A stretch of DNA of 41,948 nt from a virus (Duplodnaviria; Caudoviricetes), in IMG/VR virus record IMGVR_UViG_3300005934_000010, positions 1 through 41,948 of that record; one strand, given 5' to 3'. The translations under genes were made by a program, and so were the position numbers. Shown piece by piece: positions 27,078 to 37,150 of this stretch. The notes under the pieces are model-generated. The model ran no database searches. It was not told the DNA's origin and was given only the letters and a program-made list of their open reading frames with translations. Each line of letters begins with the position of its first letter. Position 1 is the first letter of the stretch.

Positions 27078-27121
27078 TTTCCGTTAATGAAATCTAATTC
27101 TTCATCTGTGTAAGGCCACAT
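27074..27121 (-). CDS. Putative 15-aa micropeptide MWPYTDEELDFINGN
   Basis: GAGGA Shine-Dalgarno upstream; last ORF of the small-ORF cluster. Confidence 0.45.
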   Translation of the reverse strand: MWPYTDEELDFINGN

Positions 27122-27228
27122 AATTTATTTCCTCTTTTCGTTTACCTTTTTTGTCGAGGATGCCTCTTCCGGCATCATCTGAAATTATAATAGTAGTTGC
27201 TAAAAAGACTGCCAAAATTCTAACGAAC

Positions 27229-27351
27229 TTAGGCAACCTCCTGGTTACACATTAAGCGTTTTGCTTCTTTATAGTAACCTTGTCTTGCTAATTCACTAGC
27301 CGCTCTCATACGACCAATATGTTCAAACCATGATACTAATCTTTTAACCAT
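27229..27351 (-). CDS. 40-aa small basic protein (DUF1127-like character)
   Basis: MVKRLVSWFEHIGRMRAASELARQGYYKEAKRLMCNQEVA; TAATG-coupled to the upstream ORF. Confidence 0.7.
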   Translation of the reverse strand: MVKRLVSWFEHIGRMRAASELARQGYYKEAKRLMCNQEVA

Positions 27352-27500
27352 TACACCCAACCTTTCAAATTTTTGTTAGTTAAAATTCTTTGTCTACGTT
27401 CTAGGTCAACTAAATCGTGTGATTCTGCTAACCAGTCATGTTCTACTTGTGCTTGTGTTTTTGGTCTGATTGCTTTCCATATTCTTTTTAATAAATTCAT
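27351..27500 (-). CDS. 49-aa small protein (DUF3563-like)
   Basis: ...WLAESHDLVDLERRQRIL...; TAATG-coupled on both sides. Confidence 0.7.
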   Translation of the reverse strand: MNLLKRIWKAIRPKTQAQVEHDWLAESHDLVDLERRQRILTNKNLKGWV

Positions 27501-27685
27501 TATCTGTTTCCTGTTTTCTCAAATTCTTTGTACATTCTAGGTCCCGCACCTGTTCTTAGCATATGCTCATATGCATACTGCCAGTCATTTCTATATTCTG
27601 TTTTGGCCCATAATTCAAAGTCTTTTTCTTTGGTGCTCTTAGCCGCAAAGACATTGATAAGGCCGCTGAAAAAGTTCAACGTCAT
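27500..27685 (-). CDS. 61-aa small protein
   Basis: GGAGA Shine-Dalgarno before ATG at 27685 (MTLNFFSG...). Confidence 0.7.
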   Translation of the reverse strand: MTLNFFSGLINVFAAKSTKEKDFELWAKTEYRNDWQYAYEHMLRTGAGPRMYKEFEKTGNR

Positions 27686-27699
27686 TGTTATCTCCGATA

Positions 27700-27835
27700 T
27701 TAATATGTAGATGCTTAAGGACAGCAATACCCCGGTCTCTCCCGGCGCCGCTCTTGTAAGGCATGGGTTATGCCACGGTCTTTCCCAGTCGCCAATACAA
27801 CGAAGACTTTGTGGAAGCCCTGCTTTTGTATCAAT
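27700..27835 (-). ncRNA. Structured GC-rich 5' leader / candidate cis-regulatory RNA
   Basis: Hairpins TGG-GAAAGA-CCG, CCGG-GAGAGA-CCGG, GGCAT-AACCC-ATGCC and a long 5' stem; begins just after TATAAATA (27845-27838). Confidence 0.55.
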
Positions 27836-27958
27836 CTTATTTATATAAATATACATGAAAAAACCGCTGATTTACAGTGTTTTTTCGACAATCCCGATAT
27901 GTCCAGAATGCAAGGCTACTTGCATGGCTCTATATCATTACTGCATAACAGAAAGCTA

Positions 27959-27987
27959 TTGATTTCTTATTCTAAATATGTTATTAT
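27959..27987 (+). promoter_or_regulatory. sigma70-type promoter
   Basis: TTGATT-N17-TATTAT with extended -10. Confidence 0.65.
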
Positions 27988-28016
27988 AGATATAACTAAA
28001 TCATCAAGGAGATATA

Positions 28017-32937: not shown

Positions 32938-33297
32938 ATGAATATGAAAACATCAATTATTGGACTGCTGGCCGCAGTCTTTTTTTCTGCATCAGCGATG
33001 GCAGAAGATACAAGTGTATCAAATGATATTTCTTGGGCTTTGACACTAGAACGTCAAACAGAAGCAAACGCTAATACAGGCGAACTAATGGGAACAATGG
33101 AAGTCGTAGGACTTGATGTTTCAGCAGGTGGGTTATGGAACATTGACAAGTCAGGTGAAGACTTTATCGACTTGAACAAAACAATGTTAAACTTTAGCCA
33201 CTCTCTTTCAGACCAAGCTACAGTGTATTTAAATAATGATTTTGACACTGATTGGGAAAGAACTGAGTCAACAGTAGGCTTAAAAATCACATTTTAA
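32938..33297 (+). CDS. Secreted small outer-membrane beta-barrel-like protein
   Basis: Signal peptide ending AMA|E, alternating beta strands, C-terminal VGLKITF (BAM signal). Confidence 0.7.
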   Translation: MNMKTSIIGLLAAVFFSASAMAEDTSVSNDISWALTLERQTEANANTGELMGTMEVVGLDVSAGGLWNIDKSGEDFIDLNKTMLNFSHSLSDQATVYLNNDFDTDWERTESTVGLKITF

Positions 33298-33300
33298 GTA

Positions 33301-33331
33301 TTGACAAAAACACCCCTATAGTGTATAAATA
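33301..33331 (+). promoter_or_regulatory. Dual early/late promoter of the tmRNA
   Basis: TTGACA-N17-TATAAA, whose -10 box is also a TATAAATA late motif. Confidence 0.7.
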
Positions 33332-33335
33332 TAGA

Positions 33336-33611
33336 TGTTAACGTTGAAGCGAGTTCAACGCTAGACAGGACCTGGGGGCAGTACCCAGCAGGTCCACCAT
33401 AAATACATTGTTAGTTTGCGATAGTGTGTTTATGATGGGCCTGAACTAGGATCGACTGGTAGTCAATAGGCAAGTGGAGTTAACCGAGTGACTTCGTTAT
33501 TGGTCAAAAACTATAAATGCAAACGATAATTTTGCAAATGAAGATTTAGCCTTAGCGGCGTAATCATTCGGGGTTGGCAACTGACCTGGCAACAGAACTA
33601 GTTGCTTTTTT
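33336..33611 (+). ncRNA. ssrA: Two-piece circularly permuted tmRNA (alphaproteobacterial type)
   Basis: Acceptor piece with T-arm and CAGGTCC-A-CCA ends at 33399; hairpin intervening segment; coding piece starts GGGCCTG at 33437 giving a G3-U wobble; tag ANDNFANEDLALAA* at 33519-33563. Outer ends are approximate. Confidence 0.95.
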
Positions 33612-33624
33612 ATTTAGGTGATAA

Positions 33625-33963
33625 ATGACATATGTAGTAACACAGGATTGTATAAAATGTAAGTACACTGATTGTGTTGAGGTTTGTCCAGTAGATTGTT
33701 TTTACGAAGGCGACAACATGCTTGTTATCAATCCAGATGAATGTATTGATTGTGGAGTATGTGAACCTGAATGTCCAGCAGATGCTATCTTACCTGATAC
33801 TTCCCCAAAATTCACACAAAGACTATACGATATCAATAAGAAATGGTCACAAGAATGGCCAGTTATCACAGACAAGCAAGATCCTTTGCCTAATGCAGAT
33901 GCACTAAATCCAGCAATGGGATATGCAGAGGACAAGACAAACTTGTTAGATGATTATGATTGA
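33625..33963 (+). CDS. fdxA: Dicluster ferredoxin FdxA
   Basis: [21 protein letters not shown]...[12 protein letters not shown]. Confidence 0.95.
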
Positions 33964-35975: not shown

Positions 35976-36004
35976 TTGACAAACCGAATCAAATTTGCTA
36001 TATT
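35976..36004 (+). promoter_or_regulatory. sigma70-type promoter driving the ncRNA
   Basis: TTGACA-N17-TATATT preceded by an A-rich UP-like tract. Confidence 0.75.
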
Positions 36005-36010
36005 AGTAAC

Positions 36011-36227
36011 ATAAGCATAAAACAATTTAGCGGTTGTTTTATTGTAGTGCAAGGAAGAGGGTCTTACCAGAGGCTCGAACTTGACTAGTTAGGGGTGGTA
36101 CCCAGGCTTAAAGTCTAGCGACCGAAAGTCACATCGCTCTACCGAGCGGAACTAGGTTCCCTGGATTCAGAATGGTATCTGTGTCGAGGGGTTGGGGGTG
36201 TAACCAAGTCCCTCCTACTTTGCTTAT
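36011..36227 (+). ncRNA. Stand-alone structured ncRNA, possibly of the manA-motif class
   Basis: GC-rich stretch with no ORF; terminal ATAAGCA/TGCTTAT pairing; several internal hairpins; own promoter. Confidence 0.7.
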
Positions 36228-36259
36228 ATTCTAGGTTATATCATATCATATAACCATTA

Positions 36260-36321
36260 AAGGGCAGTTAGCAAACCATATTTTACTCACTTTCATTTCA
36301 TTTTGCTAACTGTCTTTTTTA
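36260..36321 (+). terminator. Long-stem terminator-like hairpin between the ncRNA and the convergent gene
   Basis: AGGGCAGTTAGCAAA ... TTTGCTAACTGTCT followed by a T-run. Confidence 0.6.
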
Positions 36322-36325
36322 TTTT

Positions 36326-37150
36326 CTAAGCATTTTTATCTAAAGCAGAAATCATTCTAGTCATACCGATTCCTCCACCAACTCTCGGGAAGAAATCAAA
36401 TTCTAAGAATTTTTCTAATTCAGCTTCTACACGTTCTTTAGAGAATAGTTTGTATAGTAATTCTGAGTATTCGCCATTTGTAATTGTGTGAAAAGTATCT
36501 CTCATCATTTCTACATCACATGAACGTTCGGCAGAACCTATTGTTTCCATTCCACCTAAGATAACATCTATCTTCTTACTTGTAGCACCACCTTCGTGTC
36601 TACTCATGTTCCAGAACGGAGATGTCATTTCAGGAAAATCAGTAATCATAGTTGAACCGAATTCTTCAAACATCTTAGTTTCATGTTCAGCTTCCATTTC
36701 AGTCATTGGATCTAGACCAAAATGTTTCTGCCAATCTGCATATGTTCTTTCTTCTGGTTTAGGGAATTCTAAGTATTCACATAATTCGTATTCCATCTTT
36801 TTTAAATCATCGTACCCGCCTGGCATTTCAAATTCAAACATTGGGAATATAATGTCGTGTCTACCTGGAATAGCATTTGGCTCTTGTCTGTAGGACGTGG
36901 AGACACAAAAAAAGCCCTTTGCATCGGGCTTAGAGAGTAATTCGTGTTCTAACCACATTTGGCCTGTTTGGGGAAGAGGCCAGACTTGGCCTGCATAATT
37001 GTATGTTGCTACATTGAACGGATCTTCACAAGCCGCTAATATAGATAATCTGTTTTGAGTATGAACTTCTTCAAACCCTTTATCCAAAAAAAATGACCTT
37101 AAAAGGCCAACTGTTTTTGTAAATTTTGTAGGTGATATGAGTTGCGTCAT
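36326..37150 (-). CDS. Class IIb aaRS catalytic-core paralog (AsnRS-like/asparagine synthetase-related) without an anticodon domain
   Basis: LPQTGQMWLE, motif 2 YRQE...RH..FPMFEFE, motif 3 GGGIGMTR; only 274 aa. Confidence 0.8.
   Translation of the reverse strand: MTQLISPTKFTKTVGLLRSFFLDKGFEEVHTQNRLSILAACEDPFNVATYNYAGQVWPLPQTGQMWLEHELLSKPDAKGFFCVSTSYRQEPNAIPGRHDIIFPMFEFEMPGGYDDLKKMEYELCEYLEFPKPEERTYADWQKHFGLDPMTEMEAEHETKMFEEFGSTMITDFPEMTSPFWNMSRHEGGATSKKIDVILGGMETIGSAERSCDVEMMRDTFHTITNGEYSELLYKLFSKERVEAELEKFLEFDFFPRVGGGIGMTRMISALDKNA

What the first reader, a model, noticed from the sequence alone, without database searches (positions are those of the whole stretch)
35976..36321. Stand-alone ~217-nt structured ncRNA with its own promoter and terminator
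Seen: a GC-rich island with no ORF. It starts at the expected +1 of a strong sigma70 promoter and is closed by ATAAGCA(36011)/TGCTTAT(36227). Internal hairpins are ATAAAACAAT/GTTGTTTTAT, CGCTC-TACC-GAGCG, GGAAC-TAG-GTTCC and GAGGG-GTTGG...CCAA-GT-CCCTC. The TACC loop is complementary to GGTA segments elsewhere in the RNA, so pseudoknots are possible. The next gene is convergent, so this cannot be a 5' UTR switch. From memory it resembles the marine/phage manA RNA motif, whose function is unknown; I have not verified this. Inference: a trans-acting phage RNA such as a scaffold, decoy or ribozyme.
Basis: partly seen in the sequence, partly recalled or inferred. Interest (0 to 1): 0.75.

Follow-up and report, generated by a model that had tools for sequence, protein, structure and literature searches.

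The report
Stand-alone manA RNA with anti-RBS tail
This marine jumbo-phage RNA is a member of the known manA family but sits between its own promoter and terminator rather than in front of a gene, and ends in a conserved loop resembling the ribosome's own mRNA-binding tail, so it likely works as a free, possibly cage-forming RNA that may block translation starts.

Summary
The element is real and is manA (Rfam RF01745, full model, 60.5 bits against a cut-off of 55.2). It is not a 5' UTR switch here. Of 82 distinct homologs, 77 have a sigma70 promoter and 60 end in a terminator-type hairpin, and two cyanophage copies sit between tRNAs. A 2026 preprint shows manA RNAs assembling into 8- to 60-mer cages through kissing loops; complementary loops are present here, but assembly is untested. 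New at this locus: the unit probably runs about 310 nt. It ends in a 17-bp terminator-like hairpin whose 26-nt loop keeps a 13-nt core in 10 of 10 clade members while the stems change. The loop resembles the 16S anti-Shine-Dalgarno tail plus an anti-AUG, but no specific target beat the shuffled-seed controls. The scan had already noted stand-alone manA, anti-RBS terminator loops and GcrA-type promoter boxes on other DNA; I found no note joining manA to such a loop. Verdict: new variant of a known, function-unknown RNA.

The parts
35976..36004 (+). sigma70-type promoter with extended -10 (TG); predicted +1 near 36011
   Evidence: 11 of 12 consensus matches; a promoter at the same place in 77 of 82 distinct homologs
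35985..35991 (-). GANTC box reading TGATTCG on the minus strand, the top GcrA consensus of Caulobacter; function untested
   Evidence: consensus from PMC4647560; GAATC in 9 of 9 long-loop manA promoters against 1 of 68 others, one clade
36011..36227 (+). manA RNA core with an extra closing helix 36011-36017/36221-36227 (Rfam match 36018-36224)
   Evidence: covariation
36065..36070 (+). loop L3 (UACCAG), complementary to L8; loop numbers are my mapping onto the preprint's
36095..36100 (+). loop L5 (GUGGUA), complementary to L7
   Evidence: 82 of 82 cores, part of it fixed by the search pattern
36140..36143 (+). loop L7 (UACC)
   Evidence: changed in 9 of 82 cores
36172..36177 (+). loop L8 (AUGGUA), complementary to L3 and L9
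36199..36209 (+). loop L9 (contains ACCA)
36234..36255 (+). 3' hairpin A, 8 bp; sequence varies among relatives
36259..36325 (+). 3' hairpin B: 17-bp terminator-like stem, 26-nt C/U-rich loop (36276-36301), U tract 36315-36325
   Evidence: an RNA-library contig with no differences spans 36035-36310
36326..37150 (-). convergent gene with a class II aminoacyl-tRNA synthetase-like domain (PF00152); context only
   Evidence: manA lies next to it in 4 of 80 loci of this gene

Best explanation
The locus is a manA-family RNA gene of a marine jumbo phage, flanked by its own promoter and terminator-like hairpin, that likely makes a free RNA of about 310 nt whose manA core is predicted to self-assemble through kissing loops and whose 3' loop likely pairs with ribosome-binding sites to damp translation. 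Shown: family membership; a covarying fold; promoter and terminator signals conserved across homologs; a conserved 3' loop inside variable stems; the sequence in RNA libraries. Inferred: independent transcription (about 0.85); oligomers in vitro like other manA RNAs (about 0.6); assembly that matters in the infected cell (about 0.35); the loop acting as an antisense seed (about 0.4), most plausibly on early phage leaders that share the same promoter class.
For: Rfam manA over the full model. 31 of 61 pairs have double-sided changes against 8-15 in slid controls; RNAalifold independently gives 46 pairs, 26 with compensatory changes. Of 82 distinct cores, 50 have a terminator within 14 nt of the RNA end (9 of 328 random positions do), 10 have the long-loop hairpin, 19 have neither and 3 are cut. 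Cyanophage manA copies lie within 1-2 nt of a tRNA on each side. manA assemblies use L5-L7' with L8-L9', or L5-L7' with L3-L8' and a GNRA L6 (bioRxiv 10.64898/2026.07.01.735769). L8 and L9 stay complementary with different letters: UGGU/ACCA here, ACUGU/ACAGU in the Rfam consensus, UGUCA/UGACA in S-CREM1, UCUU/AAGA in ACG-2014f (read). The 3' loop core ACUCACUUUCAUU is kept in 10 of 10 cores with about five different stem sequences, and all 7 exact viral matches sit beside manA. It resembles the alphaproteobacterial 16S tail AUCACCUCCUUUC. It pairs better with 15 early-class leaders than with 246 other gene starts in the complete relative G001 (-10.2 against -8.5 kcal/mol, p 0.03), and better than with shuffled leaders (0 of 400). 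Contigs from RNA libraries of two studies cover 36014-36263 and 36035-36310 with no differences.
Against: Within this subfamily no loop-loop contact shows a compensatory change: L3-L8 88% paired, L8-L9 78.5%. L7 is changed in 9 of 82 cores with L5 unchanged, and 7 of those 9 lose one of four pairs. The window's L6 is UAGC, not the GNRA used in the decamer. Shuffled seeds do as well on early leaders in 24 of 300 (G001) and 20 of 300 (G002) trials, and the early-versus-other difference is reached in 47 of 300. The best single target in G001 (-18.6) is no better than shuffled seeds give (mean -19.5). Generic AAAGGAGT..ATG sites of unrelated phage genes pair about as well. The loop is absent from 72 of 82 manA cores. 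About 12 Mosig-type copies have no terminator and an ORF 13-35 nt downstream, as a leader would. Contigs cannot show strand, ends or level, and those of X1 and X2 run straight across the locus. The cages were made in vitro at about 3 mg/mL.
Confidence: 0.42

Rival explanations
1. The RNA is stand-alone but works as a monomer or low oligomer that binds a protein or small molecule (decoy or sponge); the C/U-rich 3' loop is a protein site, for example for S1 or a cold-shock protein, and not an antisense seed.
For: Many single-stranded positions are invariant. Loop contacts do not covary within the subfamily. No specific RNA target was found.
Against: Five manA RNAs studied by cryo-EM formed closed oligomers. 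The loop has both an anti-SD-like and an anti-AUG part at ribosome-site spacing, with a free spacer between them.
Confidence: 0.3
2. Two unrelated RNAs share one promoter: manA is cut out like a tRNA, and the 3' hairpin is a separate small antisense RNA or just a bidirectional terminator.
For: Cyanophage manA lies between tRNAs. The closing helix ends at 36227. The 3' add-on differs between clades (L058/L070/L261 carry another insert). The X6 contig stops at 36263.
Against: The X16 contig bridges core and loop without a difference (weak, a contig is not one transcript). The loop was never found exact without manA in viral contigs (7 of 7).
Confidence: 0.18
3. manA is a cis-acting riboswitch or attenuator, as Rfam and Weinberg et al. 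2010 class it.
For: Original placement in potential 5' UTRs (PMC2864571). Mosig-type copies have SD plus ATG just downstream.
Against: Here the next gene is convergent. In homologs the terminator lies wholly outside the fold, and 44 of 50 have a separate TAAATA box after it. Neighbouring genes vary freely.
Confidence: 0.06
4. DNA-level element (origin, operator) or decayed ORF.
For: Two relatives have a 40-aa frame through the 3' loop. The loop reads like codons for H-x-F-T-H-F-H, found in MutY.
Against: G-U-tolerant compensatory changes. A 4-versus-5 T indel and a stop in L018 break the frame. The same codon string occurs in two unrelated phage genes.
Confidence: 0.03

Closest known systems
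manA RNA motif, Rfam RF01745 (Weinberg et al. 2010, PMC2864571; passages and one supplement part seen)
   Same: Full-model match above the gathering score; same multi-stem fold; marine phage distribution.
   Different: Classed as cis-regulatory and a probable riboswitch, but here it has its own promoter, a terminator-like end and a convergent neighbour, plus an extra closing helix and a 3' loop module outside the model.
manA assemblies A0F1 (60-mer) and pho34_A767 (decamer), bioRxiv 10.64898/2026.07.01.735769 (parts 1-4 of 5 read; supplements closed)
   Same: Complementary L5/L7, L8/L9 and L3/L8 loops are present.
   Different: L6 is not GNRA in the window; the constructs there were under 200 nt and tested only in vitro; I could not see their sequences or loop numbering.
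Terminator-loop seed sRNAs such as Listeria LhrC (PMC4132741, search listing only) and Helicobacter RepG (named in earlier scan notes; recalled)
   Same: C/U-rich single-stranded loop on a terminator hairpin, complementary to purine-rich ribosome sites.
   Different: Much larger loop, fused to a large structured RNA, no target demonstrated.
ROOL, GOLLD and OLE RNAs (as described in the preprint; their tRNA-region context is recalled)
   Same: Stand-alone, self-assembling, function-unknown RNAs.
   Different: Several hundred nucleotides longer; no Rfam match to them in the window.

Membership tests
manA (RF01745) | Covariance-model score at or above the gathering cut-off over the whole model | tested here: met
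   60.5 against 55.2 bits, model 1-192, E 4e-13
manA (RF01745) | Multi-stem secondary structure supported by covariation | tested here: met
manA (RF01745) | Location in a potential 5' UTR (the cis-regulatory annotation) | tested here: not met
   Convergent neighbour; 60 of 82 homologs end in a terminator-type hairpin. This bears on the annotation, not on sequence membership.
manA (RF01745) | Ligand binding (riboswitch candidate) | not testable with these tools
   needs in-line probing
Self-assembling manA cages | Complementary loops L5/L7 plus L8/L9 or L3/L8 | tested here: inconclusive
   Complementary here, and L8/L9 swaps between distant members, but no compensation within the subfamily and some breaks
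Self-assembling manA cages | Oligomer formation | not testable with these tools
   needs SEC or cryo-EM
Terminator-loop antisense sRNA | Conserved single-stranded loop in a covarying terminator stem | tested here: met
   U tract weak in L018
Terminator-loop antisense sRNA | Specific, co-varying mRNA target | tested here: inconclusive
6S, RNase P, SRP, ROOL, GOLLD | Rfam match at the gathering score | tested here: not met
   only the two tmRNA models and manA match the window
GcrA/CcrM-type promoter | YGAKTCK box in the promoter | tested here: met
   TGATTCG at 35985-35991; 16 of 20 boxes counted in G001 fit the consensus
GcrA/CcrM-type promoter | Methylation and GcrA dependence | not testable with these tools
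   host unknown; no gcrA in 5 phage records searched

The most novel reading that the evidence does not exclude
In this phage clade a manA cage displays 10 to 60 copies of an anti-Shine-Dalgarno loop, forming a protein-free multivalent particle that sequesters early phage or host mRNAs away from ribosomes; this would be the first biological job for a natural RNA-only cage.
Probability: 0.08. Interest if true: 0.9.

Novelty: new variant of a known kind. Interest (0 to 1): 0.45.

Why it matters
manA has been listed as a riboswitch candidate since 2010 and was shown in 2026 to build RNA-only cages, with no known role for either. Genomic context across 82 homologs says that many copies are independent RNA genes, which redirects the search from a ligand to a trans function. 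This clade adds a natural 3' module with a sequence-readable hypothesis (ribosome-site pairing), so one construct can test both cage formation and a function. If the loop proves unrelated, what remains is an ordinary new manA member.

Tried and rejected
Peptide in the 3' module: rejected on an indel and a stop. A known Rfam family for the 3' module: none up to E 5 in five loci. Exact complement of the loop as a target: 119 metagenome matches were manA-linked copies or unrelated, chance-like hits. In 401 alphaproteobacterial genomes 22 had a match (4 control matches); the four closest lie on the wrong strand of a MutY-like coding motif (MutY named from recall), and the rest are scattered starts. 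No match in 4 genomes of the family with the closest tmRNA. Covariation test of loop against leaders: the L018-type records hold no early promoters, and the different insert of G422 has no complementary leader. Host: not resolved beyond Alphaproteobacteria (one search scanned 2 of 64 parts). RNA runs: 8 of 23 listed were laid; X11 and X13 gave no real cover of manA, X10 and X17 held relatives, X1 and X2 ran across it. Depth figures were not used to rank genes. Three records sharing early-gene leaders (among 5 searched, all partial or unrelated) gave no manA match, which shows nothing.

Full report
Setting. The window is part of a marine jumbo phage. A complete 342,607-base relative with terminal repeats (G001) is colinear with it at 70-86% identity, and the helicase is closest to PA5oct-like, Phosso and Atu_ph07 phages at 44-54%. 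A permuted alphaproteobacterial-type tmRNA at about 33290-33650 and a ferredoxin up to 73% identical to alphaproteobacterial ones (2 of 64 parts scanned) point to an alphaproteobacterial host. This is inference.

Identity. cmscan of the whole window gives manA (RF01745) at 36018-36224, full model, 60.5 bits against a cut-off of 55.2. Weinberg et al. 2010 (PMC2864571; passages; start of the alignment file) list it as a cis-regulatory riboswitch candidate of marine metagenomes and cyanophages. A 2026 preprint (10.64898/2026.07.01.735769; parts 1-4 of 5 read; supplements closed) shows five manA RNAs forming octamers, decamers and a 60-mer cage from a shared pentamer held by kissing loops.

Structure. 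Pattern scans and a neighbour search gave 438 sequences, of which 235 hold a near-full manA. These reduce to 82 distinct cores (L111 dropped for lack of an anchor, L438 dropped as the window itself). I aligned 50 of the first 60 distinct cores, leaving out 10 close variants. A structure drawn from the Rfam alignment and the window has 95.5% of cells paired and 31 of 61 pairs with double-sided change, against 20.3 in shuffles and 8-15 in slid controls. RNAalifold on the same alignment finds 46 pairs, 26 of them compensatory. The first search pattern fixed P7 and L7, so their invariance in this alignment is not evidence.

Loops. L5/L7, L3/L8 and L8/L9 are complementary in the window (loop numbers are my mapping onto the preprint's). 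Within the subfamily none shows compensation: L3-L8 is 88% paired and L8-L9 78.5%. L7 is changed in 9 of 82 cores without a change in L5, and 7 of these lose a pair. Between distant members L8/L9 does swap letters and stays complementary (window, Rfam consensus, S-CREM1, ACG-2014f; read), which favours that contact. The window's L6 is UAGC where most homologs have GAAA, so the GNRA contact of the decamer is not available. Assembly is inferred from family membership only.

Context. 77 of 82 cores have a sigma70 promoter at the same place. 50 have an intrinsic terminator within 14 nt of the RNA end (control 9 of 328), 10 have the long-loop hairpin, 19 have neither by the strict test and 3 are cut. 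Of the 19, four have a later terminator by eye, about 12 have an ORF 13-35 nt downstream as in Pelagibacter phage Mosig (rubrerythrin), two have a TAAATA box before the next gene, and one is unclear. After the plain terminators 44 of 50 have a TAAATA box, often followed by the known freshwater-2 RNA, so the next gene probably has its own promoter. In S-CREM1 and ACG-2014f manA is wedged between two tRNAs. A cis role is excluded here and unlikely for most copies, but it remains open for the Mosig type. The asnA-like neighbour is incidental: manA is next to it in 4 of 80 loci.

Transcription. Eight of 23 listed runs were laid, all as contigs. X6 has a contig at 36014-36263 and X16 one at 36035-36310, both with no differences. 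X1 and X2 have contigs that run across the locus. X10 and X17 hold relatives; X11 and X13 give no real cover. Contigs cannot show strand, ends or level, and the runs were found with this region, so this is a weak hint that the sequence, including the 3' loop, is transcribed.

The 3' module. After the core come a variable 8-bp hairpin and a 17-bp stem with a 26-nt loop and U tract. In the 10 cores that have it (84-99% identical to the window), the stems take about five different sequences and stay paired. The loop keeps ACCAUA, a 4-5-nt free spacer and ACUCACUUUCAUU; L018 has a weak U tract. It has no Rfam match and is not a peptide. Its complement reads as a Shine-Dalgarno site followed by AUG, and it resembles the 16S tail AUCACCUCCUUUC of four alphaproteobacterial genomes.

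Target tests. G001 has 18 promoters with GAATC in the spacer (0.5 expected), which drive small genes, AAA and MoxR-type ATPases and a VWA protein. The manA promoter of this clade carries the same word, 3-4 nt further from the -10. The loop pairs with 15 such leaders at -10.2 kcal/mol against -8.5 for 246 other starts (p 0.03), but shuffled seeds reach that in 24 of 300 trials and the difference in 47 of 300; G002 gives 20 of 300. Shuffled leaders never do (0 of 400). One early-type gene has an exact 10-nt complement at its ribosome site in G001, G002 and two further records. The genome-wide best target is no better than chance, generic ribosome sites of unrelated phage genes pair as well, and no host target emerged. 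So the loop is a conserved generic anti-RBS sequence whose target is not shown.

Prior art. Five searches of the open-access library found no paper describing manA as a stand-alone gene or with a 3' loop; subscription papers and the preprint's supplements were not visible. Earlier notes of this scan already report stand-alone manA, anti-RBS terminator loops in other phages (which prompted my leader test) and GcrA-type boxes. I found none joining manA to such a loop.

Verdict. Known RNA family, stand-alone use well supported, with one clade-specific add-on that appears undescribed. Best mechanism: a free RNA that probably oligomerises and whose 3' loop probably pairs with ribosome sites (0.42 for the whole). 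Interest 0.45; new variant of a known kind.

Noticed in passing
window 33290-33654 (+): Permuted alphaproteobacterial-type tmRNA, tag ANDNFANEDLALAA; G001 has one with a different tag.
   Followed up: partly
G001, e.g. 48882, 116260, 117030, 168652, 236948, 340525; also G002, G003, G415, G416: A promoter class with GAATC at a nearly fixed spacer position, mostly fitting the GcrA consensus; not found in 5 records of other manA phages. Reported before by the scan.
   Followed up: partly
L003, L005, L011, L016, L032, L089: A recurring cluster: glutamine riboswitch, short gap, manA, terminator, TAAATA box, freshwater-2 RNA, then a gene starting MGRP.
   Followed up: no
L058/L077, L070, L261, just 3' of manA: A different 40-nt insert before the terminator that shares TTTTTACTCA with the loop studied here; no complementary leader found in G422.
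   Followed up: partly
L014 and L025: manA starts about 10 nt after a tmRNA with no promoter of its own, so it is probably co-transcribed and processed.
   Followed up: no
L320 1716-1930; L553 1481-1691: Cyanophage manA copies are flush between two tRNAs; the GenBank record of ACG-2014f lists neither the RNA nor these tRNAs in this stretch.
   Followed up: partly
L034/L193, L195, L198, L113, L436 between core and hairpin B: The first 3' hairpin often shows another UACCA loop, the same word as L3, which could add a kissing contact; the window lacks it.
   Followed up: no
window 27078-28016: About 940 bases with no long plus-strand ORF, a GC-rich patch at 27720-27830 and a possible short minus-strand gene.
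   Followed up: no
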